A stretch of DNA of 64,000 bases, from contig CP129475.1 of the NCBI GenBank assembly GCA_030583785.1, positions 768,845-832,844 on the forward strand, written 5' to 3'. The notes under the pieces were generated by a model. That model had not been told where the DNA came from. It saw only the letters and a list, made by a program, of their open reading frames with translations, and made no database searches. The translations under genes and the position numbers were made by a program. Positions 28,828-42,859 of the stretch are shown here, piece by piece (the stretch's first letter is position 1; the number at the start of each line of letters is the position of its first letter). Source of the stretch: Candidatus Dojkabacteria bacterium. GTDB lineage: Bacteria; Patescibacteriota; Dojkabacteria; B142; OLB20.

Positions 28828-29526
28828 ATGTACGAATACGAATTATTTCGATTTCTTGCTAAATGGCGAAAGGCGGGTAAATACCCACCGGCTTCAGCCT
28901 GGCCGGGTTATTTGCAATTCGGCAGTTCCATCTGGGCGACTATTAACAAACTTCACAGCTTTACGGCAACAGATATGCATGAGTACGAGGCAAGTTTTTT
29001 TGCAGAAGGAGAAAAAATCATTACGACAAAACCGATCCGTGGAAGTGAGGCAAGTGTAACAGCGAGCCATTCTTTCCAAGTAAAATATATTCCGGATAAT
29101 GGCAGGGGTGTATATCAAAAACAGGTGATACTTGATGGGTCCGTGATAAATCGCGAGACAGTTTTACCTAACAATGTTCCTCAAGAAATTGTTGCTGGAT
29201 TTTTGTTCAATGTACATACTCACCCTAAGCACTTCAATTCCAATAACGAAGAAACCTATGGATTTTTTTCTCCTGTTGATGTAGGTAGTCTTCTGAAATC
29301 AAAGGCCTACTTAATGGGTCTAGTTACAAGTGAGTTCTGGCTTTGTTGTAAAACGGATAGAGTTATTTCTGAAGTCGGAACCGTTGGTGAAGAAATGTTA
29401 ATGCGTATCACAGAAGAGGCATACTCAGGCAACTCATTTTTAAATGATGTTATTCGCACCGAAATGAAGAACTGGGGACTAATTTTTTATCGGGGTGAGT
29501 TTAACGGCAAACTAATCAGAATCTAA
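28828..29526 (+). CDS. Hypothetical protein with a possible JAB/MPN-like HxH…SxxD metal-binding arrangement
   Basis: NVHTHPKHF…FFSPVD has atypical spacing, so the assignment is weak. Confidence 0.35.
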   Translation: MYEYELFRFLAKWRKAGKYPPASAWPGYLQFGSSIWATINKLHSFTATDMHEYEASFFAEGEKIITTKPIRGSEASVTASHSFQVKYIPDNGRGVYQKQVILDGSVINRETVLPNNVPQEIVAGFLFNVHTHPKHFNSNNEETYGFFSPVDVGSLLKSKAYLMGLVTSEFWLCCKTDRVISEVGTVGEEMLMRITEEAYSGNSFLNDVIRTEMKNWGLIFYRGEFNGKLIRI

Positions 29527-29535
29527 TTCATTTTA

Positions 29536-30342
29536 TTGTCTCGTATGAGCTATAATGCTTACGACATGAAATTACGCAAACAAAAAAATAGCATTGATCT
29601 TCTTAGAGAGCTTATCAAGACAAATCTTAAGCTTAGATACAACGATTCTTTGCTCGGTGTTCTTTGGGTAATGATGAAGCCACTACTCAATTTCTTGGTT
29701 CTGTTTTTTGTCTTTAGCGCATTTAGAGGTGGCGTTGATAAAGAAAATTATGCGGCAAGTCTACTGATTGGATTAATTGTCTATACCTTTATTCAAGAGG
29801 GAATCACTTTTGGTATGAACTCTTTGCTTAGTATGCAGGGAATCATTTTAAAAGTTAACTTTCCAAGAAATCTGGCCGTGCTCAGTGCCGTGCTAGTTTC
29901 TATGATCAACTTCTTTATTAATTTGTTTATCATTTTGCTACTGACTTTGTTTGTCAATTTTGTCCCAAATCCGCTAGGCGTATTGTATTTCTTCCTGATT
30001 ATGCTTGTTATTCTTGTGATCATCTATAGTGCTTCTTTGATTCTTAGCATATTAGTCATTCGCATTCGTGATCTTGAAAACATAGTGCCGATCTTTTTTC
30101 AATTACTCTTTTGGGGATCGGCAATTTTCTACGATATAAATAGCTTGTCCGGCACTGTTGGAGATATAGTTAGACATAATCCAGTTGCCATTTTAATCGA
30201 TGCCTCTAGGCAGGCTCTAATTAACGGTAGCTTTAATTATCTGCACGAGATGGCTTTTCTTGTAGTTGTAGCATTGGTAATGTTTGTAGTTTCTCGTTTG
30301 TTCTTCAATGTAGAAGTTAAAAAAATAGCAGAACATATATAA
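29536..30342 (+). CDS. wzm: ABC-2 type polysaccharide exporter permease (Wzm/TagG-like)
   Basis: Six TM helices with ABC-2 architecture. It is immediately followed by a Wzt-like ATPase with a 1-nt gap. Confidence 0.8.
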   Translation: MSRMSYNAYDMKLRKQKNSIDLLRELIKTNLKLRYNDSLLGVLWVMMKPLLNFLVLFFVFSAFRGGVDKENYAASLLIGLIVYTFIQEGITFGMNSLLSMQGIILKVNFPRNLAVLSAVLVSMINFFINLFIILLLTLFVNFVPNPLGVLYFFLIMLVILVIIYSASLILSILVIRIRDLENIVPIFFQLLFWGSAIFYDINSLSGTVGDIVRHNPVAILIDASRQALINGSFNYLHEMAFLVVVALVMFVVSRLFFNVEVKKIAEHI

Positions 30343-31638
30343 ATGGATAAACCAATAATCGAAGTAAAGAATTTAGACAAGAATTTTGTAATCCCCAGAG
30401 AGAAAAGGGACACATTAAAAAGTTATGTGATTAACCCGTTTAGAAAGATTCCAAAAGAAACATTTCGTGCTCTAAACGATGTTTCGTTTTCTATCAATGC
30501 CGGAGAATTTGTCGGGCTGATTGGCAGAAACGGTAGTGGTAAAAGTACTCTTTTGCAGCTTATTGCAGGAATATATGCACCTACCTCAGGTAGCGTCACG
30601 GTAAGAGGAAGTATTGTTCCTTTTCTACAATTAGGAGTTGGCTTTAACGATAATTTATCCGGAAGAGAGAATGTTTTTCTAAACGGTGCAATACTTGGAA
30701 TGAGTAGAAAATACCTTGAGAAGAAATACGAAGAAATTGTAGATTTTGCAGAGATTGAAGACTTTATGGATCTACAACTGAAAAACTATTCCAGTGGCAT
30801 GCGTGTTAGGTTGGCACTTGCGATTGCTGTCCAAGCAAAAGCTGACATCTATCTGTTAGACGAAGTATTGTCGGTTGGCGATGAATCCTTCCGTCAAAAG
30901 AGTTTAAAGAAGATGCAGGAAATGCTGACCAATGGAGCAACCGTTATGTATGTCAGCCATGGGTTGGAGTCAATCGAGCAAATTTGTTCTAGGGTTATTT
31001 ATCTTGAAGATGGCAAGCTGGCATACGATGGTAATGTTACAGAAGGGTTGTCGAGGTATCGGTTCTCTCTGCTGAACAAAGCTACTAGCAATAATGAGTC
31101 TCGATTCGGAAACGAAAAGAAATCCGAAGAGAAGCCATTAATGGCTGATGTCAATACAGAAAGGATCGAGATTGAAAGCATAATGATTGACGAGAGAGAA
31201 GATGGTTACGAAGTTGAAAGCAATAAGGATTTCTTGTTTAAAGTTAATATTAAGATCCTTGAAGATATTGATGATGATTTCTGGATTGGAGCTATGTTTT
31301 CTAGTGTAGATATACCAACTTCTGATGTTTACGGTTTCAGATATGACAACCTAGAAAAAAAGATACACCCAAAGGCCGGAGATCGATATTCATTTGAAAT
31401 TAAGTCACCTTTTCCTTTTAATCCTGGTAGTTATGTATGTAAATTTAAAATTGGATCACATGTTAAAGTTAAAAGGGCCGCTCATCTGAAAGACATTGAT
31501 TACTATCGTAAGGTGCACACAGAAGAACAGGGATACCTTCTAGCCAAGAGATCCTTCATTATTAACTGCTGTGGTGAAGATCGTAGATACTATTCCTTAA
31601 TTACATCTAAGAGTAGTATTTCCGTTGATAAAAAATAA
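30343..31638 (+). CDS. wzt: ABC transporter ATP-binding protein (Wzt/TagH-like) with a C-terminal extra domain of about 180 aa (putative glycan-terminus-binding domain)
   Basis: Walker A GRNGSGKST, signature YSSGMRVRLALA, and Walker B IYLLDEVLSVGD. The beta-rich C-terminal extension spans residues 250-431. Confidence 0.85.
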   Translation: MDKPIIEVKNLDKNFVIPREKRDTLKSYVINPFRKIPKETFRALNDVSFSINAGEFVGLIGRNGSGKSTLLQLIAGIYAPTSGSVTVRGSIVPFLQLGVGFNDNLSGRENVFLNGAILGMSRKYLEKKYEEIVDFAEIEDFMDLQLKNYSSGMRVRLALAIAVQAKADIYLLDEVLSVGDESFRQKSLKKMQEMLTNGATVMYVSHGLESIEQICSRVIYLEDGKLAYDGNVTEGLSRYRFSLLNKATSNNESRFGNEKKSEEKPLMADVNTERIEIESIMIDEREDGYEVESNKDFLFKVNIKILEDIDDDFWIGAMFSSVDIPTSDVYGFRYDNLEKKIHPKAGDRYSFEIKSPFPFNPGSYVCKFKIGSHVKVKRAAHLKDIDYYRKVHTEEQGYLLAKRSFIINCCGEDRRYYSLITSKSSISVDKK

Positions 31639-31762: not shown

Positions 31763-32899
31763 ATGAATCAGCCTCATGGTGGTGTTCTCATAAATCGCTT
31801 TGCAAATAAAGATAAACTTTCTTTTGATAATATAGCTCTGTCTATCGAGCTCGATGACGATCAGCTTAGTGAGGTTAAAAATATTGCAGTCGGAACATAT
31901 AGTCCATTAAACGGCTACATGAATAAAGATGACTTTGAAAGTGTTCTTGAGAAAGCTAGGTTAACAAACGGAGTACCATGGAGTGTTCCTGTATTTCTGC
32001 CTGTTTCCAAGGTAGATTATCGATGCATAAAAGTTGGTGGTCAGGTATCCTTGCGTTACAAAGGCAAAGATATTGCGCTTATGGAGGTCTCTGATAAATT
32101 TACCTTCGATGCAGAAAAGTATGTAAAAAGTGTTTATGGCACAACAGACCCCAATCACCCTGGAGTGGCGATGATTAATTCGCTAAGTACTTATGTCATC
32201 GGAGGAGAAATCTGGGTGTATGAAGAACTTCCATCCAAGTATCTTGAATTTGATTTACCTCCACAAAAAACGAGAGAGCTATTCGCCGAAAAAGGCTGGA
32301 ATACAGTCGTAGGTTTTCAGACTCGTAATGCAGCCCACCGTGCTCATGAATTCATTCAAAAGATGTGTCTTGAATTTGTTGATGGGTTATTCATTAATCC
32401 AATCATAGGCAAAAAGAAGAGCGGGGATTTTACAGACGAGGTCATCTTAGCTGTCTATAAAATGCTGGTAAGAGATTTTTATCCTGCCAACTCTACTGCT
32501 ATCGGTGTTTATAGTTCGAGAATGCACTATGCTGGTCCCAAAGAGGCAATCTTTCATGCGATAGTTCGAAAAAACTTCGGTTGTACACATTTTATTGTGG
32601 GTAGAGACCATGCCGGCGTGGGCGACTATTACGACAAATTTGCAGCACACAGAATATTCGATGAGTTTGAAGATATCGGAATTGTACCTATGCGAGTAAG
32701 TAATGCCTTCTTTGATAAAAAATCCGATATGTATACGACTCAAAAGGCGTCACCATTCGGACCAGAACATTGGATTTCTCCTAGTGGGACAGAAGTGCGC
32801 AGACTAATCAAAGAAAAAAATTATAAAGACTTGAAGTATATTCTTCGACCAGAAGTTTTGGAAGAAATTCTTAAGTTCAAAGAGCCCTTCGTGTTATAG
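31763..32899 (+). CDS. sat: Sulfate adenylyltransferase (ATP sulfurylase)
   Basis: N-terminal PHGGVLINR and the ATP-sulfurylase motifs QTRNAAHRAHE and GRDHAGVGDYY. Confidence 0.85.
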   Translation: MNQPHGGVLINRFANKDKLSFDNIALSIELDDDQLSEVKNIAVGTYSPLNGYMNKDDFESVLEKARLTNGVPWSVPVFLPVSKVDYRCIKVGGQVSLRYKGKDIALMEVSDKFTFDAEKYVKSVYGTTDPNHPGVAMINSLSTYVIGGEIWVYEELPSKYLEFDLPPQKTRELFAEKGWNTVVGFQTRNAAHRAHEFIQKMCLEFVDGLFINPIIGKKKSGDFTDEVILAVYKMLVRDFYPANSTAIGVYSSRMHYAGPKEAIFHAIVRKNFGCTHFIVGRDHAGVGDYYDKFAAHRIFDEFEDIGIVPMRVSNAFFDKKSDMYTTQKASPFGPEHWISPSGTEVRRLIKEKNYKDLKYILRPEVLEEILKFKEPFVL

Positions 32900-32919: not shown

Positions 32920-33453
32920 ATGAAGATAAGCAAGCCTTTCTGTCTTTGGTTTACAGGACTTCCTTCATCCGGAAAGACAACAACAGCATTAGCATTGAAA
33001 GATAAATTTACAGAGTCTGGAATAAATATCGTACATCTAGATGGAGATGTGGTTAGAAAGGGATTAAATTCTGACCTCGGTCTTTCTAAAGAAGATAGAG
33101 AAGAAAACAACAGAAGGGTTATTCATGTCTCCGAAATTGTTGTTGGTAGCGGCATTCCTGTAATAAGCTCTTTCATCTCTCCATATAAATCTACTCGAGA
33201 TTTTGCCAAATTAACAATTCCAAATTATATTGAGGTGTTTGTAAATACACCTTTAAAAGAATGTGAGAGACGCGATGTAAAGGGCCTTTACGCAAAAGCT
33301 AGAGCAGGTGAAATAAAAGGGTTAACCGGATACGACGACCCCTACGAAGAGCCTCTTGCTGCAGATATTATTCTGGATACTGTTGACCACGATCTAGAAG
33401 AAAATATGATTCAAATAATTTCCTTTCTAAGACAGCAGAATTTCATTAATTAA
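32920..33453 (+). CDS. cysC: Adenylylsulfate (APS) kinase
   Basis: P-loop FCLWFTGLPSSGKTT and the LDGDVVRKGLNSDLGLSKEDREENNRR motif typical of APS kinase. Confidence 0.85.
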   Translation: MKISKPFCLWFTGLPSSGKTTTALALKDKFTESGINIVHLDGDVVRKGLNSDLGLSKEDREENNRRVIHVSEIVVGSGIPVISSFISPYKSTRDFAKLTIPNYIEVFVNTPLKECERRDVKGLYAKARAGEIKGLTGYDDPYEEPLAADIILDTVDHDLEENMIQIISFLRQQNFIN

Positions 33454-33464
33454 TATCTTAACTA

Positions 33465-34364
33465 TTGAAAATGCAAAAACACATATACCACAAATATGTT
33501 TCAACGGATTACTTCAATATTGCTGTCAATATCTCTCTTCAAAACAATTACTTGTACGTAGAAACCCCAAAGGTCGCTTGTTCAAAGATTAAATCGATTA
33601 TTGAATGTATAGAACTGGGCAGAAACGATGTTTATGAACATAAAAGTCGGGATTTGATCCATCACAGGTCACATGCGCCTCTTCTGTCACCAAGACAAGT
33701 CTTTGACCTTGAGAAATTAATAACTGAAAGGAAAATGTATAAGTTCTGTTTCGTTAGAAATCCATATACAAGGATACTCTCTGCCTATTTGAACAAGATT
33801 GAAGCAAACGAACCTGAGAAATATCAAATACTTTATCAACTGGGTCACCCTGCTGACCTGAACATAAAACTGACATTTCATGAATTCGTAAGCGCCATAT
33901 ATGAGACACCGCTTGCACACCTAGATCCACATTGGAAGCATCAGTATTATTTAACTTATCAAGATGATATTGATTATGATTATGTTGGAAAAATTGAGAA
34001 TTTCCAAAAAGATTTCACTAACATCCTAAAAGTGATAAATAAGCGCAAGCTAGTATTTGACTTAGGTAGCAAGATCAATTCTACAGATACTGATAAGATG
34101 ATGAAGAAGCTCTATACTCGAGAAATTCGAGACATGGTATATAATAAATATCGGATCGATTTTGATTATTTTGAATATTCTCCAGAGCTAAGCGTTTTTC
34201 CCGGTGAGAAGCCAAAAACCTGCGAAATGTTTGTAGATAAAAAAGTTAACGAAGATTATATTGGAGAGAGATATGCAGCACTTAAGGAGGAGATGGAAAC
34301 GATTAATAGTACAAGACCTTGGAAAATGTATAAGAAAGTTAGAAAGACAATATTAAAGCGATAA
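33465..34364 (+). CDS. PAPS-dependent sulfotransferase, carbohydrate-sulfotransferase-like family
   Basis: 5'-PSB-like ETPKVACSKIKS and 3'-PB-like FVRNPYTRILSAY (RxPxxRxxSxY), immediately downstream of sat and cysC. Confidence 0.65.
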   Translation: MKMQKHIYHKYVSTDYFNIAVNISLQNNYLYVETPKVACSKIKSIIECIELGRNDVYEHKSRDLIHHRSHAPLLSPRQVFDLEKLITERKMYKFCFVRNPYTRILSAYLNKIEANEPEKYQILYQLGHPADLNIKLTFHEFVSAIYETPLAHLDPHWKHQYYLTYQDDIDYDYVGKIENFQKDFTNILKVINKRKLVFDLGSKINSTDTDKMMKKLYTREIRDMVYNKYRIDFDYFEYSPELSVFPGEKPKTCEMFVDKKVNEDYIGERYAALKEEMETINSTRPWKMYKKVRKTILKR

Positions 34365-34408: not shown

Positions 34409-37400
34409 ATGGAAAAAACAAAAAAAGCAGCATGGCTGATTGATTATCCCATCAAGGGGTCTGGAGGACATAAAACATTCTTCTACTACATTAATCATCT
34501 GATAGAAATTGGTTACGAAGTCGATGTATATGTCTATGATTTTCTTGGAGTAAATGCTTCACCAGCAACTGACCCGTCTTCACTTGCTGCAGTTGTAGCC
34601 GACTATCTTATCCCTAGTCGGGCAAACTTTTATTATGGTTGGAAACCTAAAGGAGTCTACGATTTCATGTTTGCAACTTGGTTCCCGAATGCACCTGTTG
34701 TAGCTGATTATCCCTACGCAAAGCACAAAATCTTTTTTGAGCAGGAGTACGAACCATTCTTCACCATGATGGGTGATCAAACTATCAAAGCTCAAAATGC
34801 ATATCATCTTGGGCTTACAGGTATAACTATGGGAGGATGGCTAGCAAAAGAGCTGACTGCAAAACATAACATGGAGGCATATCCACTCTATCTGGGAGCC
34901 GACTTAGACTCGTATTACGATAAAGGTCGATTTAGAGATAATGCTGTGTGTTTTATCTATCAGTCTAATAAGCCACGCCGTTGTCCGCAACTTACGATAG
35001 AAACGATAGATGTTTTGCACGCAGTTGATCCAAGCATTCGCATCTATACTTTTGGTGGTGAAGATGTGCCACCTGTTGCCGGAGCTACGCATCAAGGGTT
35101 ATTGCGCATCAAAGACTTGAATAAACTTTATAATCAATGCAAGGTAGGCGTTGCTTACAGCACCACTAATCCTTCAAGAATTCCTTTTGAAATGATGGCT
35201 GCCGGATTACCTGTTGTTGAGCTTTATGCAGATAATAATCTCTACGATATACCTACAAAAGCTGCTTTGCTAGCAAAACCAGATCCATTTGCCGCAGCTA
35301 CTGCTATCTTAAAACTACTCAAAGACGAAAAATTGTGGGCAGAAAAGAGCCGAGGCGGCTTGGAATTTATGCGAACTAAGTCCTTAGACAAATCTGTAAA
35401 AGACTTCGCGAAGATTCTTTCTGATATTACTATCAGCAAGCAGAATCCGAATACCAAGATTGAAAAGCTTTATCTTGATAAACAGATTGATGCAGATCCG
35501 AGGTTGGTAAAGAAATATAATTATGTTAAAGCTACTCATTCAGACTTTCTAAAAACAGGAGATAAGCTCTCCTTTAACGGAAGCCTTACCAGATTCGCAA
35601 AGTATCAGGTCAAAAGAGCAGTAAGCCCGGTGCGTAGTTTCAAATCATTTGTCCTAAATCTTATTCAAAGTACTGTTTCTGTATCTAAGAACCTGATTTC
35701 CAGAGTTAAGCTGGAGCTGTTTATTCTGGGAAATACGAAACTATTCTCAAGCGACATCTTTGATACTTTAGTACGCAGAGAAGTACATCCAGATGAAATT
35801 AAGTTACGCTCAAGCTGGATGATGAAGCTAAAGTTTAACAATTATGCCAAGAGACTCTCAGTTTTAGAGCTCTTTGAACTCCGTAGATCAGTTGAATCAA
35901 AAATCGGGGCAGAGAATGTTGCTCAAGGAAAAGATCATGAATACGAACTTGAACAAGTATTTGAACAAGTATTACGAATAATTACACCAGACAGATCAAA
36001 GTTGTTCTACCAAGATAATGCTCGTCAGCTTGCTGAATGGGAAATGCAACACGAAATGAAGGTACTTTATCCAGATCGATTTGGGCAATCCGTATTTAAA
36101 CGGATTAAGGCCGAAACAAAAATTCTTTTGTCAGATTTCTATATGACTAAAGAGGCGCTGAATAAGATTCTGCCGCTTAAAGATATTCGTAGTGAAATCA
36201 AGCAGATCGTAAGTTCGGCAGACACAAGATTAAATAAAATCAGCGGTAGAGCTTATGATCACCTCCATAGAAGATTTAAGGTTAACCCTTCAGAGCATAA
36301 ACATCTCGGAGACAACAAATGGTCTGATTTCGAGAAACCAGCCAGTATCGGAATTAAATCAGCATTGTTTATAAATCCAAAGGAGGAAGAAAAACGGGCA
36401 GCTCTCAATGAGGCATTTTCTCAAAGACTAAACAAAGAGGGCTTTCCATACAAAGAAGAAATGGAATCTTTACTAAATGAGATCAAAGTCCCAGAAGGAT
36501 ATTCCAAAGAAGAGTCTGAGTTATTCAAGTTGGGTACAAAATATTCCCCGATTTACTTTTTCTATGTTCTTCAGCTTTGGGAAACAGCTTATAAGCTTGG
36601 AATCGAAACAATCCACTACTTCACTCGTGAGGGCATATTCTTTAAAAAGATTCACGATCAGTTCGCCAAACAGTCATTCTTTCCTTTTAAAGAAATTAAG
36701 TCAGATTTAATAGAAGTCAGCAGAATGTCTACTTTTGCAGCCTCTGTAGGTTCTGTTGAATTTTACGAACTTAAAAGAATTTGGAATCAGTACAAATATC
36801 AGTCAATTAATTCTTTTCTCGTTACACTTGGAATTGATCCAGCTCTATTTGCAGAAGATATTCAGAAGTTCAAGATTGATCCCGAAAAAGAGGTTGAAAT
36901 TTGGAAGGTTGCCAAGTATCAGGACTTGTTTGCAGATAAAAATTTCGTCGAAAAATTGCAAGGTATGCTCAATAAGAAAAGAGAGCTTCTTGTTGGATAC
37001 CTACAGCAGAAAGGGATAAGTCAGCAATCCAAGCAGGTACTGGTAAGCGATATAGGTTGGAGAGGCACTATACAAGATAACATTGCCAGAATATTCAATC
37101 AGGTGGACTTTTACGGAGTTTATCTAGGCTATATTCACCCACTAAATAATCAAGAATTTAATACATTCAAACATGCATACGGACCTTACTTTGTGAGTGA
37201 TGCTCCGTACTTTATGCAAATGCTTCATGGTGGAGCAACTTTTGTTGAGATGCTTTCCACTTCCCCTGGCGGAAGCACAATAGGCTATGAACATGCGGAT
37301 AAAAACAAAATTGTTGCCATAAAAGAAATCTCAAAAGTTGAAGACGAGTACATTCACAACAAATATGTTCGATTCTTCCAGGAAGGTGTAATTGCCTCGG

Positions 37401-37834
37401 TGGCAGCCCTTGCAAATTTTACAGACAAACATGCGCTACAGAGTTCCGAGGTGAGGCCTTATGTACTAAGGCTTATGGACGATTTAATCAAAAAGCCGAA
37501 TTACTTGTTTAGTAAGATATTCTTTAATCTTACCTACAGTGAAACATTTGGGGTGGGTGAGTATTTCGACATGAAGAAGAGATCAACCCTGAAAAAACGA
37601 AATCTTGTTCTTGCCGTAATCTCCAAATCAAGAAGAGAAAATATCGAAGAAGCAGTAAATAAATCGCAATGGAAACAGGGGTTCTGGAGATACCAAGATA
37701 GGCTTGGCATATTCAGCGTAGCCAGTAAGGTTTATTATGATTTGCAAAACGCCAGAAATGCTCTTGCTCCAAAAAGAAGGATATTGCAACTATTATCTAA
37801 AGTTGGGAAACTAAAAAAGAAAATACTTGGTTAA
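34409..37834 (+). CDS. Multidomain 1141-aa protein: N-terminal GT-B (GT4-like) glycosyltransferase domain plus about 800 aa of unassigned C-terminal region
   Basis: GT4-type E-x7-E motif IPFEMMAAGLPVVE around residue 255. The rest (…LVSDIGWRGTIQDN…) has no motif I can assign. Confidence 0.5.
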   Translation: MEKTKKAAWLIDYPIKGSGGHKTFFYYINHLIEIGYEVDVYVYDFLGVNASPATDPSSLAAVVADYLIPSRANFYYGWKPKGVYDFMFATWFPNAPVVADYPYAKHKIFFEQEYEPFFTMMGDQTIKAQNAYHLGLTGITMGGWLAKELTAKHNMEAYPLYLGADLDSYYDKGRFRDNAVCFIYQSNKPRRCPQLTIETIDVLHAVDPSIRIYTFGGEDVPPVAGATHQGLLRIKDLNKLYNQCKVGVAYSTTNPSRIPFEMMAAGLPVVELYADNNLYDIPTKAALLAKPDPFAAATAILKLLKDEKLWAEKSRGGLEFMRTKSLDKSVKDFAKILSDITISKQNPNTKIEKLYLDKQIDADPRLVKKYNYVKATHSDFLKTGDKLSFNGSLTRFAKYQVKRAVSPVRSFKSFVLNLIQSTVSVSKNLISRVKLELFILGNTKLFSSDIFDTLVRREVHPDEIKLRSSWMMKLKFNNYAKRLSVLELFELRRSVESKIGAENVAQGKDHEYELEQVFEQVLRIITPDRSKLFYQDNARQLAEWEMQHEMKVLYPDRFGQSVFKRIKAETKILLSDFYMTKEALNKILPLKDIRSEIKQIVSSADTRLNKISGRAYDHLHRRFKVNPSEHKHLGDNKWSDFEKPASIGIKSALFINPKEEEKRAALNEAFSQRLNKEGFPYKEEMESLLNEIKVPEGYSKEESELFKLGTKYSPIYFFYVLQLWETAYKLGIETIHYFTREGIFFKKIHDQFAKQSFFPFKEIKSDLIEVSRMSTFAASVGSVEFYELKRIWNQYKYQSINSFLVTLGIDPALFAEDIQKFKIDPEKEVEIWKVAKYQDLFADKNFVEKLQGMLNKKRELLVGYLQQKGISQQSKQVLVSDIGWRGTIQDNIARIFNQVDFYGVYLGYIHPLNNQEFNTFKHAYGPYFVSDAPYFMQMLHGGATFVEMLSTSPGGSTIGYEHADKNKIVAIKEISKVEDEYIHNKYVRFFQEGVIASVAALANFTDKHALQSSEVRPYVLRLMDDLIKKPNYLFSKIFFNLTYSETFGVGEYFDMKKRSTLKKRNLVLAVISKSRRENIEEAVNKSQWKQGFWRYQDRLGIFSVASKVYYDLQNARNALAPKRRILQLLSKVGKLKKKILG

Positions 37835-37843
37835 ATTAATACC

Positions 37844-38821
37844 TTGAAAATATCAGTCGTCATCAACACCCTAAATAGACCTGAACAGGTTTCCTTGTGC
37901 CTAGAGTCACTTAGACTCCAGACTTATAAGGATTTCGAGGTGATAGTAGTAGATCAGTCACGCAACAGGAGAACAAAAGAAGTCTGTAAGCCTTACAATC
38001 TTAAATACTACCGCATTAAAAAGCGCAATAACCTTTCAATATCCAGAAATTTTGGAATCAACATGGCAGCAGGCGAGATCGTTGCCTTTATCGATGACGA
38101 TGCACAGGCAAAAGAGGACTGGATCGAACGAATTTCAAATCATTTTTTGCAAGATGATAAACCTGGATTCATTGCAGGTAGAGTTATTGATGTCTCAGAC
38201 AGTGAGAATCCCGTTACCCAGTTTCAAAACGGAATTGTTTCTGCCTTCGGCTACAGTGAAGATATCCGCCCCACAGATGAAAAAAGATATCAAAGGGGGC
38301 ATGCAGGGTGGTATGTTCGACCGATGGGTGCAAATATGGTTTTTCAAAAAAAATCTCTAGAAAAAATCGGCGGATTCGATGAATTCTATGAATATATTCA
38401 CGACGAAACAGATGTCGCAGTTCGGGTTATTAAGTCAGGGGATTATGGTTTGTATGATGATTCATTAATTGTTTATCACAACCCAGCTCTTGGTAGAAAC
38501 CGTAAACGCAAAAGATTCAGTACAAATTGGTATGCACTTACAAAAAATAACATATATTTTGCTCTTAAAAATGGATCTGGAATTTTGCCATTAAGGGTTT
38601 TAAGGTCTTTCTGGAGAGTACTTGGAGCTCGCGGACCATTCATTGCTTTGTTCAAGCTATTTTTGCACCGAAAAATTTCAATATTTAGTTACATGTTTGG
38701 AAACATTCGAAGCGGTTTAGGGCTTCTTAAAGGGTTCTTCTGGGGAACGAGAAAAAAGAGGAAGCTTATGAAAGTTACTGAACCATCTGCATATTTATTG
38801 TTTGCAAAAAGACATGGATAA
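37844..38821 (+). CDS. Family 2 glycosyltransferase
   Basis: MKISVVINTLNRPEQV…FEVIVVDQS and the DXD motif FIDDDA. Confidence 0.8.
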   Translation: MKISVVINTLNRPEQVSLCLESLRLQTYKDFEVIVVDQSRNRRTKEVCKPYNLKYYRIKKRNNLSISRNFGINMAAGEIVAFIDDDAQAKEDWIERISNHFLQDDKPGFIAGRVIDVSDSENPVTQFQNGIVSAFGYSEDIRPTDEKRYQRGHAGWYVRPMGANMVFQKKSLEKIGGFDEFYEYIHDETDVAVRVIKSGDYGLYDDSLIVYHNPALGRNRKRKRFSTNWYALTKNNIYFALKNGSGILPLRVLRSFWRVLGARGPFIALFKLFLHRKISIFSYMFGNIRSGLGLLKGFFWGTRKKRKLMKVTEPSAYLLFAKRHG

Positions 38822-39173
38822 ACAAAGTGAAAATGCCAAAATGTTTGTATCTAGAATGAGAGAACTACTAAATGAAGAGGAACTGGGTGGCATGAGAAGA
38901 GAAGATGATCCAGATGTACTAATTCGCGAGTATGTATTGCCCGCTCTTGAATCAAGTAAGAATGTGCTTGCAGATTTGTACCATGACATTCATGGAGGTA
39001 GCGGACCGTTTGCTAAAATCAAACGCATAATAATAACCAAGGTTGCCAACATCTCCAGAAATACTATGGAACGGAGTATGATATCCCAACAGAGATACAA
39101 CGACATGGTTTATACTCTGCTTAAATATTTGTACGAAAAAAACAGTACATCTTCACCCAATAAGAAAAAATGA
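38802..39173 (+). CDS. Hypothetical small cytoplasmic protein, translationally coupled to both flanking GT genes
   Basis: 123-aa ORF that overlaps the GT2 end by 20 nt and overlaps the next start by ATGA. No motif recognised. Confidence 0.35.
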   Translation: MQKDMDKQSENAKMFVSRMRELLNEEELGGMRREDDPDVLIREYVLPALESSKNVLADLYHDIHGGSGPFAKIKRIIITKVANISRNTMERSMISQQRYNDMVYTLLKYLYEKNSTSSPNKKK

Positions 39174-41347
39174 GAATCCAAATTATTGGTCCCTTTGTTT
39201 CCGAATATTCTTTGGCCAGGGTAAATAGGGCAATAGCAGAAAAACTAAGACACGATCATAAAAATATAAAGCTTTCATTCTTCTCTCCAAAATATCTGTC
39301 AGGCAGTGCCGTAACCAAGTCCGATATAAAGAAGTATCCAATCCTGGAGACCCTTGTCGATGATATAGATCAAGAAGCAGATGTTCATCTTTATAGCGCT
39401 TTCCCAAAAAGCACTGCAGACAATTTAGGATTAGAGATGTTGTGTGGAAAAATTAATGCTGCCTTAATTGCATGGGAAGAAAGCGTTTTTCCAGAAAAAT
39501 GGGTGCAAGAAATCAATATGCATCTTGATGCGGTTTTTGCAATTAGTAGCCATGTGGCAAGGATTCTTGAAAGATGCGGGGTAAGAGTGCCAATCAGCAT
39601 ATTAAGCTTAGGCGTTAGCAAAGTTGAAGCCGATAATAATTATAAACTTGACTTACAGACAAGCTTCAATTTCTTGCATATTAGCTCAGGCCATATGCGT
39701 AAGGGCTTAGACTTATTGTTGCAGGCTTTCGTAGAAGAGTTCTCGCAATCTGATGAAGCTGGGCTAATTATCAAAGCACTTCCGAATCCGAATTTTAATG
39801 CCAAAAATTTCATTAAGAGTGCCAAAGGTGTCGAAGGTAGAGTTGTTCTAATTGAGGACAGTAATTTGTCAGATGCTCAAATTGCCAGTCTATATGAATA
39901 TTCTGATTGTGTGGTGCTTCCTGCTCGTGTTGAGGGGTTTAATCTGCCTGCAGCAGAGGCGATGCTCTATGAACGACCTTTAATTACAACTGCCTATAGT
40001 GGTCATTTAGATTTTTGCAATGAAACCAATTCAAGATTACTACCATACACAATTGTGCCTGCAACAGGGTCCCACTTGGCACTACCGGGTTCAAAATGGG
40101 CTGAACCAGATATCTCGGCATTAAAAACCGAGATGAGAAATATTTATAAGAATCGAGAAGTTTTTAATCGTATGGTAGCTAAGGCTAGATCGGATATTAG
40201 CAATTTCACTTGGGATAATACTGCAAGTCGCTTGCTAGAACAACTTCGGCTTTACTTGGCTATCAAAAATGCCGGTTCAATAAAGCTAGACCTAGTAAGT
40301 CCTTTTTATTCTCAAGGTGGGGTTTCGGAGTATTCTGCTGATTTATATCGTTCTTTGCCGAAGAATATTGAAGTCGAGATTCACGCTGATAAAACCAGTT
40401 CACCTACAAATACTTCTGAACCAGTAAAGCGAGATTGGTCTTCAGGGCGTGGCAAACAGCAAGAACTCATGTCGGCCTTGACTGGAAGGGACATAGTTCA
40501 TATTCAATACCATACAGATTTCTTTCCGGTGTCAATTCTAAGAGATTTGATCGCAGTTCCAAGCAAGTGCATATTGACTCTGCATATCTTAACCGCTGAA
40601 ATGACTAACACCGAAACAATTGAAGCCTTTAAAAAGTGCTCAAAGATTTATGTTCATAACCAAAGGGATTTTAATACTCTAGAATCAAAAGGGCTAAAGA
40701 ATATTCAGTTGTTCACGCATGGAATAATAGATTTTCCAGATCACTTAAGGTCAATGCTTAGATCCAGAATCGGGATCTCTGCAACAAAAGTCATTGCCAC
40801 ACATGGGCTTCTTCACGATAGAAAAGGGGTACTTGAGCTGATAGAGGCATTGGCGCTAATAAAATCGCAGATTCCGGATATTTTACTGTTATGTTTGACA
40901 GCGGTCAGCAGTCAATCTCTAAGCTCGCAGAGTATTTTCAAGAAATGTTTGAATCTTATCAGAGAAAGGAATCTTGAAGAAAATGTCATTTTTATTCCAG
41001 ACTATCTTGCTAGAGAAGAAGTATTATTTGGATTACAGATGGCAGATTTAATTGTTCTTCCGTATGCAGAACTACCAGAAGGGTCGAGTGGCGCGATTCG
41101 TACATGCGCTGCTGCCAAGAGACCAATCCTCTGCACAGAGTCAACAATATTTACGGACTTTCCTGCTGCAGAGAGAATTTCTGATAATAATCCAAAAACA
41201 ATTGCGGATGAAGTTATTGCGATGTTAAACGATGAGGGGCCCTTGCACTCGGCTGAAAGCAAGGTAAGACAATTCGTTGCTTCAAACCAATGGAGGAATC
41301 TTTCGTTGGAGTATTTTCGAGACTTAGCTCAAATAAGTGCATCCTGA
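39170..41347 (+). CDS. Tandem double-GT4 glycosyltransferase (two GT-B modules in one polypeptide)
   Basis: Two E-x7-E motifs, EGFNLPAAEAMLYERPLITT and EGSSGAIRTCAAAKRPILCT. This architecture resembles serotype-specifying mannosyltransferase-type polymerases. Confidence 0.75.
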   Translation: MRIQIIGPFVSEYSLARVNRAIAEKLRHDHKNIKLSFFSPKYLSGSAVTKSDIKKYPILETLVDDIDQEADVHLYSAFPKSTADNLGLEMLCGKINAALIAWEESVFPEKWVQEINMHLDAVFAISSHVARILERCGVRVPISILSLGVSKVEADNNYKLDLQTSFNFLHISSGHMRKGLDLLLQAFVEEFSQSDEAGLIIKALPNPNFNAKNFIKSAKGVEGRVVLIEDSNLSDAQIASLYEYSDCVVLPARVEGFNLPAAEAMLYERPLITTAYSGHLDFCNETNSRLLPYTIVPATGSHLALPGSKWAEPDISALKTEMRNIYKNREVFNRMVAKARSDISNFTWDNTASRLLEQLRLYLAIKNAGSIKLDLVSPFYSQGGVSEYSADLYRSLPKNIEVEIHADKTSSPTNTSEPVKRDWSSGRGKQQELMSALTGRDIVHIQYHTDFFPVSILRDLIAVPSKCILTLHILTAEMTNTETIEAFKKCSKIYVHNQRDFNTLESKGLKNIQLFTHGIIDFPDHLRSMLRSRIGISATKVIATHGLLHDRKGVLELIEALALIKSQIPDILLLCLTAVSSQSLSSQSIFKKCLNLIRERNLEENVIFIPDYLAREEVLFGLQMADLIVLPYAELPEGSSGAIRTCAAAKRPILCTESTIFTDFPAAERISDNNPKTIADEVIAMLNDEGPLHSAESKVRQFVASNQWRNLSLEYFRDLAQISAS

Positions 41348-41796
41348 ATTGCTTCTGCATCTTGTTTTTCTGGAGTCTTAAACACCCAAAGTTTGTAAAC
41401 CAAAAAGGTCCAAGATACCTGAAGCCCAGTGACGACGATTTTTGCCGGAACAGGATTAAGAAACACCACATATAGAAGAAATCCAAGGATTGCATTATTC
41501 GTTACATAGTTGAATGAAGCAATACTTACATATCTAAAGAGCTTCTGCTTCTTCTTTTTCCCACCTGCCTTGAATGTCCAGTAATTTGAGGCAAGGAAGT
41601 TAAACACAAGTGATAGAAGCAAAGAGATTACATTTGCAGAAAGCGGGGCGACAGAGAATACAAAAATTAGTGTATTAAAGATTAGAAAATCCAGTCCAAA
41701 CGAAGAAAAACCGACTATCAAATAGCGAACAAAGTTGATTCCCAAGGTTTTTCTTGCTCTGTTAACGAGTCTGGTTATCATAGTTTGCCGAATCAA
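41329..41796 (-). CDS. gtrA: GtrA-family small membrane protein
   Basis: INFVRYLIVGFSSFGLDFLIFNTLIFV and 4 TM helices, adjacent to a GtrB-like GT2. Confidence 0.65.
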   Translation of the reverse strand: MIRQTMITRLVNRARKTLGINFVRYLIVGFSSFGLDFLIFNTLIFVFSVAPLSANVISLLLSLVFNFLASNYWTFKAGGKKKKQKLFRYVSIASFNYVTNNAILGFLLYVVFLNPVPAKIVVTGLQVSWTFLVYKLWVFKTPEKQDAEAIQDALI

Positions 41797-42859
41797 TTAT
41801 TTTGGAAAGCTTGTCTGCGCTTTTTTCCCAGCTGTAGTTGTCAGATAGATAATCCGGGCTGGATTTTGATTTTTTTTCCTTAACCAAAGAAACCAAACCC
41901 GTGCCAATGCTTTCTACACTTTGCTGATTGCAATAACGAACTTTGTCGCCTAAGGTTTCATGAAAGATTGGAATATCTGAAACGAGTAGGGGAAGACCAT
42001 GATAAAGCGCTTCAATCGGAGGAATCCCGAAACCTTCGTAATGGCTAATGTATACAAACGCTTTGGCCTGACTGTAGAGCATTGAAAGATCTTCGTCAGC
42101 AATGTATCCGGCAAGTATAACTTTCTTTTCTAGATTGTTTTCGATTATTGTTTTGTATATCTCCTCAAAATACCAACCTTTTTTGCCAACAATGACTAAT
42201 GGAATATTTAATTGATCCTTGTATTTCGCATATGCTGTAATAAGATTAATGTAGTTTTTTCTGGGTTCTAATGTGCCAACGCTGAGAATGAATTCGGCCG
42301 GCAGGCTTTGAATTAACTCAGATGCAAGGACATCTTTGGAAGACTTGGTTATCCAGGGATTTAGACCTGGGTAGAGGACCTCAATATCATTTCGTTTTTG
42401 TTTTGAATATTCTTCAAGCTCCTTTTTAATTGTATTTGAGACTGTAACGATCTTCCAGGCTTTTTTCATAGCCTTTGACAGAGATCTTTTATACTTAAAT
42501 GCTGCTAAAGCAGGGAAGTAGTTCGGGAATTTCAGGGGCGCGATATCATGCACAAACTGTATTGTTTTTGGGAAATACCAACTAAATGAATGATTTGATG
42601 GAGAAATAAAAATATCTACCGAGTGTTTTTTTGCATGTTTTGCCACGGCTTTAATCCAGCGTTTTCCTGAAAAGGGAAGACTTCTGTTTACTTTTATGAC
42701 AACATTTTTTGTATGTGGGAGAAGCCGAGGAGTTCGTGTATAAACAATGTACTCATTTTTCTTGTCGTGTTCTACGAGTTCGGAGACTAAATTTATAGTG
42801 TATTGACCTATACCTGCAGGAGAGTCTTCGACAGGTGATAAATCTATAGCAATTTTCAT
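41762..42859 (-). CDS. Family 4 glycosyltransferase
   Basis: EGFGIPPIEALYHGLPLLVSD, a GT4 E-x7-E motif. Confidence 0.8.
   Translation of the reverse strand: MKIAIDLSPVEDSPAGIGQYTINLVSELVEHDKKNEYIVYTRTPRLLPHTKNVVIKVNRSLPFSGKRWIKAVAKHAKKHSVDIFISPSNHSFSWYFPKTIQFVHDIAPLKFPNYFPALAAFKYKRSLSKAMKKAWKIVTVSNTIKKELEEYSKQKRNDIEVLYPGLNPWITKSSKDVLASELIQSLPAEFILSVGTLEPRKNYINLITAYAKYKDQLNIPLVIVGKKGWYFEEIYKTIIENNLEKKVILAGYIADEDLSMLYSQAKAFVYISHYEGFGIPPIEALYHGLPLLVSDIPIFHETLGDKVRYCNQQSVESIGTGLVSLVKEKKSKSSPDYLSDNYSWEKSADKLSKIIDSANYDNQTR

What the first reader, a model, noticed from the sequence alone, without database searches (positions are those of the whole stretch)
31090..31638. Wzt carries a C-terminal cap-recognition-type domain, and sulfate may be the chain-terminating signal
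In ABC-transporter-dependent O-antigen systems (E. coli O9a, K. pneumoniae O12), a C-terminal beta-sandwich on Wzt binds a non-reducing-end modification that couples chain termination to export. This Wzt has an extension of about 180 aa of that kind (…FLFKVNIKILEDIDDDFWIGAMFSS…FEIKSPFPFNPGSYVCKFKIG…). The only obvious terminal modifier encoded nearby is the sulfotransferase, with no WbdD-like kinase or methyltransferase in the operon. A sulfate cap read by Wzt-C would be a new variant of this quality-control mechanism.
Basis: inference. Interest (0 to 1): 0.6.

Follow-up and report, generated by a model that had tools for sequence, protein, structure and literature searches.

The report
Wzt cap-reader domain tied to sulfation genes
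A glycan-export ATPase from an uncultured Dojkabacteria (candidate phylum) bacterium carries a genuine cap-reading domain, and across relatives that domain always sits next to sulfate-activation genes, so a sulfated glycan end is a plausible but unproven new export signal.

Summary

The sulfate idea gains real comparative support. In all 9 related Dojkabacteria-type loci examined, a CBD-bearing Wzt is followed directly by ATP sulfurylase, and in 7 of the 8 that can be read past it, by APS kinase. Sulfotransferases there vary from 0 to 4 and come from different families. Four loci at the same site with a CBD-less Wzt have none of these genes. Two loci with canonical CBDs have methyltransferases instead. 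None of 116 broadly sampled Wzt loci has sulfate-activation genes nearby.

The two residues lining the methyl pocket in Aquifex (T346, A348) are K367 and K369 here. The first is Lys or Arg in 7 of 7 clade members and in 0 of 31 other CBDs.

Not shown: that sulfate is terminal or stops chain growth, or that the CBD binds it. No coiled-coil ruler terminator was found, and relatives with several sulfotransferases suggest in-chain sulfation. Verdict: a new variant of a known mechanism, partly supported.

The parts
29536..30342 (+). Wzm, the ABC-2 type permease of the glycan exporter
   Evidence: PF01061 ABC2_membrane E=6.9e-12. It abuts wzt, whose start follows the wzm stop directly. It is conserved upstream of wzt in all related loci.
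30343..31062 (+). Wzt nucleotide-binding domain (residues 1-240)
   Evidence: PF00005 E=4.7e-24. The best PDB relatives are Aquifex Wzt 8dku/7k2t at E=7e-56, followed by TarH/TagH.
31063..31143 (+). Hinge and linker (about residues 241-267), low complexity and variable in length among relatives
   Evidence: Alignment A1 shows a gap-rich, non-conserved stretch here. Model residues 1-8 have low pLDDT.
31144..31638 (+). Wzt C-terminal carbohydrate-binding domain (about residues 268-431, plus the stop codon)
31441..31449 (+). K367-F368-K369 on the beta-strand that lines the cap pocket. K367 and K369 align to Aquifex T346 and A348, the walls of the methyl pocket
   Evidence: The register is anchored by the ungapped PG-x-Y motif, both in MAFFT and in the HMM alignment to 8dky. 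Aquifex pocket residues are taken from PMC9445017. Lys or Arg at the first position in 7 of 7 clade members and 0 of 31 other CBDs.
31462..31521 (+). Insertion of about 20 residues rich in K, R and H (residues ~374-393), in place of the Aquifex 'trap loop'. Predicted helical with low confidence
   Evidence: Model helices 115-122 and 126-134 have pLDDT 58-72. The insertion is shared only with P0002 and P0003.
31763..32899 (+). ATP sulfurylase (sat)
   Evidence: PF01747 E=4e-74 and PUA_2 E=2e-44. This gene lies directly downstream of wzt in 9 of 9 related CBD-bearing loci.
32920..33453 (+). APS kinase (cysC). Together with sat it makes the sulfate donor PAPS
   Evidence: PF01583 E=2.5e-55.
33465..34364 (+). 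PAPS-dependent sulfotransferase of the Sulfotransfer_2 family, the candidate capping enzyme
   Evidence: PF03567 E=1.8e-24. The stretches I take, from my own knowledge of sulfotransferases, to be the PAPS-binding motifs (PKVACS, residues 35-40, and RNPYTRILS, residues 98-106) hold the invariant residues K36, C39, R98, N99, P100 and R103, with S40 and S106 nearly invariant. The AF2 core is confident and is followed by a low-confidence helical tail of about 40 aa. All top fold hits are sulfotransferases, but they are weak.
34409..37834 (+). 1141-aa fusion of a WsaF-like glycosyltransferase with a PRPP-dependent ribofuranosyltransferase and its HAD-type phosphatase; a polymerase component, not a terminator
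   Evidence: WsaF_C E=1.3e-9. The C-terminal 700 aa match PDB 7shg 'Ribofuranosyl transferase' at E=1e-41 and Bcs3 at E=3e-9. The two-domain enzyme is described in PMC11231755.
37844..38821 (+). GT2 glycosyltransferase
   Evidence: PF00535 E=7e-27.
39170..41347 (+). Glycosyltransferase with two GT4 modules (WbdA-like architecture)
   Evidence: Two matched stretches each for Glycos_transf_1 and Glyco_trans_1_4. Conserved in L007 and L047.

Best explanation
The cluster encodes an ABC-transporter-dependent pathway for a cytoplasmically assembled, sulfated cell-surface glycan, probably one containing ribofuranose. Wzm/Wzt export the finished lipid-linked chain. Wzt carries a bona fide C-terminal carbohydrate-binding domain. 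By analogy with the E. coli O9a, K. pneumoniae O12 and Aquifex systems, that domain checks the non-reducing end before export is licensed. In this Dojkabacteria lineage the feature it reads is most likely a sulfated terminal residue. That residue would be made by the adjacent sulfotransferase using PAPS supplied by the sat and cysC genes, which are linked to wzt in the relatives. Sulfation of the hydroxyl needed for the next glycosyl transfer would stop elongation, in the way methylation or phosphorylation does in known systems. The sulfate would sit in a pocket where the hydrophobic methyl-binding residues of Aquifex are replaced by lysines (K367, K369).

Shown here: the CBD fold and homology; the conserved wzm-wzt(CBD)-sat(-cysC) module; its absence from CBD-less loci and from methyltransferase-linked loci; and the Lys/Arg substitution pattern.

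Inferred: that the CBD binds sulfate, that the sulfate is terminal, and that it terminates polymerisation.
For: 1. The CBD is real.

2. Conserved module. The window with its identical contigs, plus L007, L008, L045, L046, L047, L048, L049 and L050, all have a CBD-bearing Wzt followed at once by sat. In L008, L046, L047, L048 and L050 the wzt stop overlaps the sat start by 4 or 8 bp. cysC follows in every locus except L049; in L046 the contig ends inside sat, so cysC cannot be seen there. L048 keeps wzm-wzt-sat-cysC with no glycosyltransferase or sulfotransferase within 10 kb, so the exporter and PAPS genes form the constant core.

3. Contrast classes at the same lgt-fmt-wzm-wzt site. Four loci with a 249-aa CBD-less Wzt (L009-L012) lack sat, cysC and sulfotransferases. 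Two loci with canonical CBDs (L051, L052) have methyltransferases, one of them a 914-aa methyltransferase-GT fusion directly after wzt, and have no sulfation genes.

4. Rarity. None of 36 GTDB loci and none of 80 metagenome Wzt loci has sat or cysC nearby, although more than 40 of the 80 metagenome loci have a Wzt of CBD length.

5. An independent lineage. L133 holds the closest homologue of the window's sulfotransferase and reads wzt (435 aa, CBD-like C-terminus), APS kinase, CysQ-like phosphatase, Sulfotransfer_2.

6. Pocket chemistry. K367 and K369 align to Aquifex T346 and A348. The first position is Lys or Arg in 7 of 7 clade members plus P0053 and P0091, and in 0 of 31 other CBDs. The CBDs of P0098, P0101 and P0113 keep the Aquifex T/A/H/W set, and the P0098 locus is methyltransferase-linked.

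7. No other non-glycosyl modifier is present in the cluster. The HAD-like domain is accounted for as the phosphatase half of a ribofuranosyltransferase.
Against: Nothing here shows binding, and nothing shows where the sulfate sits. Relatives carry 0, 1, 2 or 4 sulfotransferases from different Pfam families. That pattern fits in-chain decoration better than a single cap.

The hallmark terminator with a long coiled-coil ruler was not found. The sulfotransferase has only a low-confidence helical tail of about 40 residues.

Sat-linked CBDs of the P0012/P0013/P0023 group and of L133 do not have basic residues at the two pocket positions. Overall CBD charge is not shifted.

The associations are not phylogenetically independent. 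On the NBD tree they may reduce to about three events. With CBDs present in roughly 40-55% of background Wzt proteins, that gives only modest statistical weight (about 0.06-0.17 by chance).

The pocket mapping rests on an alignment at 15-20% identity and on a model whose coordinates I could not inspect.
Confidence: 0.45

Rival explanations
1. Sulfation is a decoration along the chain, giving a polyanionic wall or S-layer glycan. The CBD reads something else: a terminal sugar added by one of the glycosyltransferases (as beta-Kdo is in O12), or a backbone epitope. On this view sat and cysC sit beside wzt only because the whole pathway forms one operon.
For: Relatives have two to four sulfotransferases of different families. 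Several glycosyltransferase modules remain unassigned. No ruler-type terminator is evident. Some sat-linked CBDs lack basic pocket residues.
Against: This view does not explain why the CBD and the PAPS genes appear and disappear together at one syntenic site. It does not explain why wzt-sat stays adjacent, often with overlapping stop and start codons, while the sulfotransferases and glycosyltransferases vary or lie elsewhere. It does not explain the Lys/Arg replacement exactly at the methyl-pocket positions.
Confidence: 0.3
2. The CBD recognises sulfate groups on the polymer wherever they occur, not specifically at the end. It acts as a check that the chain has been sulfated before export, or simply recruits the anionic polymer to the transporter. 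Chain length would be set in some other way.
For: The same co-occurrence and pocket evidence as for the main explanation. The multiple sulfotransferases in relatives also fit this view.
Against: Every characterised Wzt CBD binds a non-reducing terminal structure (PMC9445017). The Aquifex pocket is a closed end-on site that accepts a chain end, not an internal residue.
Confidence: 0.15
3. The C-terminal domain has lost ligand binding and serves only as a dimerisation or ATPase-regulating module. Its link with sulfation genes would then reflect shared ancestry alone.
For: The sequence is very divergent. The CBD alone finds only one relative, at E=9e-4, among 1.84 billion representative proteins. 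The Pfam score is below the gathering threshold.
Against: Rapid divergence is typical of cap-specific CBDs. The fold is retained with good model confidence. The domain persists across loci whose NBDs have diverged to about 60% identity, and Wzt proteins lacking it exist at the same site, so losing the domain is evidently possible.
Confidence: 0.07

Closest known systems
E. coli O9a / K. pneumoniae O3 system: WbdD terminator (kinase-methyltransferase with coiled-coil ruler) plus Wzt with a C-terminal CBD (PDB 2r5o)
   Different: No kinase or methyltransferase is present, and no long coiled-coil protein was found. The candidate modifier is a PAPS-dependent sulfotransferase, with dedicated sat and cysC genes next to wzt. 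The host is a candidate-phylum bacterium, so the product is not an LPS O-antigen.
Aquifex aeolicus WzmWzt with a CBD that binds the 3-O-methyl-mannose/rhamnose cap (PDB 8dky, 6o14, 8dku; PMC9445017)
   Same: The closest solved relative by sequence: the full-length proteins align across the NBD and into the CBD, and the clade profile hits it at E=7e-12. Same fold, and the PG-x-Y strand carries the pocket residues.
   Different: The methyl-pocket residues T346 and A348 are Lys here, H350 is Gly, and W362 is not conserved. The short trap loop is replaced by a basic insertion of about 20 residues. The loci of the canonical CBDs P0098 and P0106 carry methyltransferases instead of sat and cysC, and P0098 keeps T/A/H/W.
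K. pneumoniae O12 / Raoultella terrigena: WbbB (GT99 beta-Kdo terminator, ruler and polymerase in one protein) plus a Wzt CBD (PDB 5hno)
   Different: That cap is a sugar (Kdo) added by a glycosyltransferase. No GT99 or Kdo-pathway family was among the Pfam or NCBIfam hits to the cluster's proteins.
K. pneumoniae O4 and O7 O-polysaccharide systems containing ribofuranose (PMC11231755)
   Same: A PRPP-dependent two-domain ribofuranosyltransferase takes part in an ABC-transporter-dependent, capped polymer.
   Different: There the terminators are a Kdo transferase (O4) and a methyltransferase-kinase on a coiled-coil protein (O7). Here the ribofuranosyltransferase is fused to a WsaF-like glycosyltransferase, and the only non-glycosyl modifier is a sulfotransferase.
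[quoted passage not shown]
   Same: A long Wzt lies directly beside a sulfotransferase-domain gene in an ABC-transporter-dependent cluster.
   Different: The authors report no sulfate in the published O-antigen structure and assign the gene no function. No sat or cysC genes are described, and that system also has a WbbB-type protein.
Geobacillus stearothermophilus NRS 2004/3a S-layer glycan pathway (WsaE/WsaF, 2-O-methyl-capped poly-rhamnan). This comparison rests on my own knowledge and was not checked here
   Same: A capped glycan exported by Wzm/Wzt in a bacterium without an outer membrane. A WsaF-type glycosyltransferase domain is present.
   Different: The cap there is a methyl group. No sulfation genes are involved.

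Membership tests
Wzt C-terminal carbohydrate-binding domain (Pfam PF14524 Wzt_C; solved examples 2r5o, 5hno, 6o14/8dky) | Fused to the C-terminus of the NBD of a Wzm/Wzt-type ABC-2 exporter | tested here: met
   ABC_tran covers residues 44-175, the domain starts at about residue 268, and Wzm lies directly upstream.
Wzt C-terminal carbohydrate-binding domain (Pfam PF14524 Wzt_C; solved examples 2r5o, 5hno, 6o14/8dky) | Detectable sequence homology to known Wzt CBDs | tested here: met
   The single sequence is weak: Pfam 21.6 bits against a gathering score of 30.4 (E=2.4e-4), and phmmer gives E=0.05 to 8dky. The profile of the 7 clade CBDs gives E=7e-12 to the Aquifex CBD, 5e-4 to O12 and 2e-3 to O9a. 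The wider profile A2 gives 2.6e-24, 4.9e-10 (O9a) and 1.8e-9 (O12). The orthologues P0002, P0005, P0006 and P0008 carry a precomputed PF14524 hit.
Wzt C-terminal carbohydrate-binding domain (Pfam PF14524 Wzt_C; solved examples 2r5o, 5hno, 6o14/8dky) | Jelly-roll / beta-sandwich fold superimposable on solved CBDs | tested here: met
Wzt C-terminal carbohydrate-binding domain (Pfam PF14524 Wzt_C; solved examples 2r5o, 5hno, 6o14/8dky) | Dimer stabilised by exchange of the C-terminal beta-strands | not tested
   Only a monomer was modelled. A final strand at model residues 166-171 is present.
Wzt C-terminal carbohydrate-binding domain (Pfam PF14524 Wzt_C; solved examples 2r5o, 5hno, 6o14/8dky) | Binds the non-reducing terminal cap and is required for export | not testable with these tools
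   This needs binding and export assays.
Capped-glycan (polymerase-terminator) ABC-transporter-dependent assembly systems (WbdD / WbbB type) | ABC transporter with a CBD | tested here: met
   See the rows above.
Capped-glycan (polymerase-terminator) ABC-transporter-dependent assembly systems (WbdD / WbbB type) | Dedicated chain-terminating enzyme in the cluster | tested here: inconclusive
   A sulfotransferase is the only non-glycosyl modifier present. Whether it terminates chains was not shown.
Capped-glycan (polymerase-terminator) ABC-transporter-dependent assembly systems (WbdD / WbbB type) | Terminator, or a partner protein, carries a coiled-coil molecular ruler | tested here: inconclusive
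   The sulfotransferase model ends in two helices (259-283 and 286-298) with pLDDT 44-69, far shorter than the WbdD/WbbB rulers as I recall them. The 123-aa ORF and the inter-domain region of the 1141-aa protein were not modelled. No coiled-coil predictor was run.
Capped-glycan (polymerase-terminator) ABC-transporter-dependent assembly systems (WbdD / WbbB type) | Cytoplasmic polymerase made of glycosyltransferase modules encoded with the transporter | tested here: met
   A WsaF-like GT fused to a ribofuranosyltransferase, a GT2 and a double GT4.
PAPS-dependent sulfation pathway | ATP sulfurylase and APS kinase scoring above Pfam gathering thresholds | tested here: met
   PF01747 at 249 bits and PF01583 at 187 bits.
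PAPS-dependent sulfation pathway | Sulfotransferase with conserved 5'-phosphosulfate and 3'-phosphate binding motifs | tested here: met
   PF03567 at 87.7 bits against a cut-off of 22. K36, C39, R98, N99, P100 and R103 are invariant and S40 and S106 nearly invariant across 30 homologues. Naming these stretches as the 5'-PSB and 3'-PB motifs rests on my own knowledge of sulfotransferases. All top fold hits are sulfotransferases.

The most novel reading that the evidence does not exclude
In a lineage of Dojkabacteria, a sulfate ester on the non-reducing terminal sugar is the chain-terminating cap of a glycan exported by an ABC transporter. It is read by a lysine-lined pocket in the Wzt CBD. The exporter and the PAPS-synthesis genes form a conserved four-gene module, wzm-wzt(CBD)-sat-cysC. 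That would add a fourth cap chemistry to methyl, (methyl)phosphate and Kdo, and would be an early mechanistic handle on envelope glycan assembly in these uncultured candidate-phylum bacteria.
Probability: 0.35. Interest if true: 0.7.

Novelty: new variant of a known kind. Interest (0 to 1): 0.6.

Why it matters
Coupling export to recognition of a terminal cap is the mechanism by which many bacteria set the length of surface glycans. The cap chemistries listed in the structural literature read here are methyl, (methyl)phosphate and Kdo (PMC9445017). A sulfate cap would be a new chemistry with a new recognition pocket. It can be tested directly with a small soluble domain and sulfated sugars. 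It would also give a first experimentally approachable hypothesis about the surface glycans of Dojkabacteria, organisms that have not been cultured. The conserved wzm-wzt(CBD)-sat-cysC module is a simple genomic marker that could be searched for more widely. If sulfate proves to be only an in-chain decoration, the result is still useful: a conserved sulfated, ribofuranose-containing wall glycan pathway. It would be less surprising.

Tried and rejected
1. Searching with the CBD alone led almost nowhere. The word-indexed search found no hit, and exhaustive HMMER over 1.84 billion representatives found only P0002 at E=9e-4. The domain evolves too fast for single-sequence searches, so contexts had to be reached through full-length Wzt hits.

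2. The HAD-like domain of the 1141-aa protein was considered as an alternative terminator. It was rejected because the C-terminal 700 aa are a PRPP-dependent ribofuranosyltransferase with its phosphatase (7shg, E=1e-41).

3. A global excess of positive charge on sat-linked CBDs was tested and not found. Only the local pocket positions differ.

4. Sulfotransferase-like genes near Wzt in two Verrucomicrobiota loci (L019, L023) were examined. In L019 the Wzt C-terminus is unrelated to this CBD and several apparent methyltransferases are present, so these loci are uninformative.

5. The metagenome scan with the Wzt alignment returned only distant Wzt/TagH loci, at most 52% identical. It served as a background sample (0 of 80 with sat or cysC) and not as a source of further members.

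6. The fold search with the sulfotransferase model gave only weak matches, all to sulfotransferases, and says nothing about the acceptor.

7. Nine literature searches found no report of a sulfate cap read by a Wzt CBD. The key census of terminator chemistries, Mann, Kimber and Whitfield, Glycobiology 2019, could not be opened. I therefore cannot exclude that sulfotransferase terminators were already predicted there.

8. No terminator-like site lies between wzt and sat. The promoter-like matches in the 124-bp gap are no more frequent than chance.
Full report
**Observation**

The finding spans residues 250-431 of a 431-aa ORF (30343-31638, + strand). Both quoted peptides are in its translation. 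The N-terminal 240 residues are an ABC ATPase (PF00005, E=4.7e-24). The ORF immediately upstream (29536-30342) is an ABC-2 permease. Together they form a Wzm/Wzt-type glycan exporter. The closest solved relatives are Aquifex aeolicus Wzt (8dku/7k2t, E=7e-56), aligned from residue 13 to residue 367 and therefore well into the C-terminal extension, followed by TarH/TagH.

**Is the extension a Wzt carbohydrate-binding domain (CBD)?**

As a single sequence the signal is weak.
- Pfam Wzt_C scores 21.6 bits, below the 30.4-bit gathering score.
- phmmer of the domain against the PDB gives E=0.05 to the Aquifex CBD.
- A word-indexed search with the domain found nothing.
- An exhaustive HMMER search of 1.84 billion representative proteins found only one relative, P0002, at E=9e-4.

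With relatives included the case becomes firm.
- A profile of the seven CBDs of the window's own clade hits the Aquifex CBD at E=7e-12, the O12 CBD at 5e-4 and the O9a CBD at 2e-3.
- A broader CBD profile gives 2.6e-24 (Aquifex), 4.9e-10 (O9a) and 1.8e-9 (O12).
- An AlphaFold2 model of residues 260-431 (pLDDT 82, pTM 0.77) is a beta-sandwich with one low-confidence helical insertion.
- Foldseek ranks the E. coli O9a (2r5o), Aquifex (8dky) and O12 (5hno) Wzt CBDs first, second and third.

**Context**

The best Wzt homologues are named Candidatus Dojkabacteria / candidate division WS6. Such candidate-phylum bacteria are thought to lack an outer membrane (my own knowledge), so the product is a wall or S-layer type glycan and not an LPS O-antigen.

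Downstream on the same strand, with no terminator-like site between wzt and the next gene, lie:
- ATP sulfurylase (31763-32899);
- APS kinase (32920-33453);
- a Sulfotransfer_2 enzyme (33465-34364);
- a 1141-aa protein, a GT2, a 123-aa ORF and a double-GT4 protein.

The 1141-aa protein is a WsaF-like glycosyltransferase fused to a PRPP-dependent ribofuranosyltransferase with its HAD-type phosphatase. Its C-terminal 700 aa match PDB 7shg at E=1e-41 and Bcs3 at E=3e-9. This two-domain enzyme is described for K. pneumoniae O4 and O7 in PMC11231755. That accounts for the only other domain that looked like a modifier. No methyltransferase, and no kinase other than APS kinase, was found in the cluster with Pfam or NCBIfam.

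**Comparative test of the sulfate idea**

I retrieved the genomic context of nine further CBD-bearing Wzt homologues, plus loci from GTDB genomes and from metagenomes. Three classes occur at the same syntenic site (lgt, fmt, usually a conserved 232-aa ORF, wzm, wzt).

- **Class 3: CBD with sulfate-activation genes.** This class comprises the window with its identical contigs, and L007, L008, L045, L046, L047, L048, L049 and L050. All have a CBD-bearing Wzt followed at once by ATP sulfurylase. In five loci the wzt stop and the sat start overlap by 4 or 8 bp. APS kinase follows in every locus except L049; the L046 contig ends inside sat, so cysC cannot be seen there. No methyltransferase appears among the listed Pfam hits. 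The rest of these loci varies. The listed stretch (up to 10 kb on each side) holds 0, 1, 2 or 4 sulfotransferases of the Sulfotransfer_1/3 or Sulfotransfer_2 families, with different glycosyltransferase sets. L048 has only wzm-wzt-sat-cysC. The constant unit is therefore the exporter with its CBD plus PAPS synthesis.
- **Class 1: no CBD.** L009-L012 have a 249-aa CBD-less Wzt at the same site, with an NBD 61-67% identical to the window's. They have no sat, cysC or sulfotransferase within the flanks. A methyltransferase or a pyruvyltransferase lies nearby in the two loci I scanned.
- **Class 2: canonical CBD with methyltransferases.** L051 (P0098, named Dojkabacteria) and L052 (P0106) have canonical CBDs, methyltransferases and no sulfation genes. 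In L052 a 914-aa methyltransferase-GT2 fusion sits directly after wzt.

As background, none of 36 GTDB Wzt loci and none of 80 metagenome Wzt loci has sat or cysC nearby, although more than 40 of the 80 metagenome loci have a Wzt of CBD length.

One further lineage adds to the picture. The closest homologue of the window's sulfotransferase (46% identity) lies in L133. That locus reads wzt (435 aa, with a CBD-like C-terminus), APS kinase, a CysQ-like phosphatase, and Sulfotransfer_2.

For the sulfation pathway as a whole this is not met. It is only loosely met for the sulfotransferase gene itself, which is not always within 10 kb.

**Pocket chemistry**

The strand carrying T346, A348 and H350 follows a conserved PG-x-Y motif with no gap, so the alignment register is well anchored both in MAFFT and in the HMM alignment. 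Three patterns emerge.
- P0098, P0101 and P0113 keep T/A/H/W; the locus of P0098 was retrieved and carries a methyltransferase.
- The window has K367 and K369 at the T346 and A348 positions, Gly at the H350 position, and a basic insertion of about 20 residues in place of the trap loop.
- Lys or Arg occupies the first position in 7 of 7 members of the window's clade, and also in P0053 and P0091, but in 0 of 31 other CBDs. The second position is Lys or Arg in 5 of those 7.

This is what one would expect if a pocket for a methyl group had been converted into a pocket for an anion. There are limits. The P0012/P0013/P0023 group and L133 are sat- or cysC-linked yet lack these basic residues. Overall domain charge does not differ between classes. 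I could not inspect the model coordinates.

**What remains inference**

Nothing here shows that the CBD binds sulfate, that the sulfate is on the terminal residue, or that it stops polymerisation. Three points weigh against a strict cap.
- Relatives carry several sulfotransferases (two in L007, four in L008), which suggests sulfation along the chain.
- The hallmark terminator with a coiled-coil ruler was not found. The sulfotransferase model has a confident catalytic core, with the residues I take to be the PAPS-binding motifs conserved, but only a low-confidence helical tail of about 40 residues.
- The associations are not independent. On a neighbour-joining tree of the NBDs the sat-linked Wzt proteins fall into two or three groups, and L133 adds one more. 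Counted conservatively as about three events, against a background CBD frequency of 40-55%, chance alone would give this pattern with probability of roughly 0.06-0.17.

**Mechanism proposed**

Glycosyltransferases build the chain on a lipid carrier in the cytoplasm. The sulfotransferase, fed by the linked sat and cysC genes, sulfates the non-reducing terminal sugar at the hydroxyl needed for the next transfer, and this ends elongation. The Wzt CBD, with K367 and K369 in the pocket, recognises the sulfated end. As in Aquifex, that positions the chain at the CBD-NBD interface and stimulates ATP-driven export through Wzm.

I put about 0.45 on sulfate-dependent recognition of the chain end. About 0.15 more goes to sulfate-dependent recognition that is not restricted to the end. 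I put about 0.3 on the rival that sulfate is only a decoration and the CBD reads something else.

**Comparison and novelty**

The system works like the O9a, O12 and Aquifex capped-glycan exporters, and the domain is a member of the Wzt CBD family by profile and by fold. It differs in three ways: the candidate cap chemistry, the tight linkage of wzt to PAPS synthesis, and the lack of a recognisable ruler protein.

The nearest literature hint is the Aeromonas salmonicida A450 cluster. There a 438-aa Wzt is followed by an unexplained sulfotransferase-domain gene and a WbbB homologue, and no sulfate is reported in the O-antigen (PMC4483657). Nine searches of the paper library found no report of a sulfate cap read by Wzt. 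The 2019 census of terminator chemistries by Mann, Kimber and Whitfield could not be opened, so prior prediction cannot be excluded.

I rate this a new variant of a known kind, with interest 0.6.

Noticed in passing
window 34409-37834 (+): The 1141-aa ORF fuses a WsaF-like glycosyltransferase to a PRPP-dependent ribofuranosyltransferase with its HAD-type phosphatase (7shg, E=1e-41; Bcs3, E=3e-9). The glycan therefore probably contains ribofuranose. In L007 the two halves are separate genes, and in L045 a PRPP synthetase gene sits next to the orthologue.
   Followed up: partly
window 28828-29526 (+): A 232-aa ORF directly upstream of wzm has no Pfam or NCBIfam hit but carries a JAMM/MPN-like motif (HTHPKH...SPVD). 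It is conserved next to wzm in most CBD-bearing and all four CBD-less loci (28-66% identity), so it belongs to the site and not to the sulfation module.
   Followed up: partly
window 33465-34364 (+), compared with L007, L008, L045, L050: The window's sulfotransferase belongs to Sulfotransfer_2, whereas syntenic relatives use Sulfotransfer_1/3 enzymes. Its closest homologues (35-48% identity, about 250 aa) include proteins named from Methylococcaceae-type, alphaproteobacterial and cyanobacterial genomes. This suggests the sulfotransferase was replaced by horizontal transfer while wzt-sat-cysC stayed in place.
   Followed up: partly
L133 5011-12108 (GCA_021789395.1, contig JAJYJP010000006.1): A second kind of sulfation-linked exporter: wzt (435 aa, K/E-rich linker and a CBD-like end), APS kinase, an Inositol_P (CysQ-like) phosphatase, a 217-aa ORF, Sulfotransfer_2, and a 981-aa double-GT2 protein with a weak hit to CRWN_N, which I take to be a coiled-coil region. 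It has no ATP sulfurylase in the stretch retrieved, and its pocket positions are not basic.
   Followed up: partly
L052 11196-13940 and L051 13566-14573: Relatives with canonical CBDs carry methyltransferases. One is a 914-aa methyltransferase-GT2 fusion directly after wzt, a classic terminator-polymerase arrangement. P0098 (L051) also conserves the Aquifex T/A/H/W methyl pocket, and is named Dojkabacteria.
   Followed up: partly
window 44554-47612 (-): Two adjacent ORFs (593 and 425 aa) carry ATP-citrate lyase-type domains: Citrate_bind, the ATP-citrate synthase ATP-grasp domain, CoA-ligase and the citrate synthase C-terminal domain. This seemed unexpected for a small candidate-phylum genome.
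   Followed up: no
window 41329-44542 (-): Convergent with the cluster are a GtrA-family membrane protein, a GT4, a GT2 and an NAD-dependent sugar epimerase/dehydratase. A mannose-1-phosphate guanylyltransferase-like gene lies at 48541-49629. These may supply or prime the same glycan.
   Followed up: no
window 38802-39173 (+): A 123-aa ORF with no family hit precedes the double-GT4 gene. A small ORF holds the same position in L007 (92 aa) and L047 (121 aa). From its sequence I would guess it is helical, which makes it a candidate scaffold or ruler partner, but neither its structure nor its similarity to those ORFs was tested.
   Followed up: no
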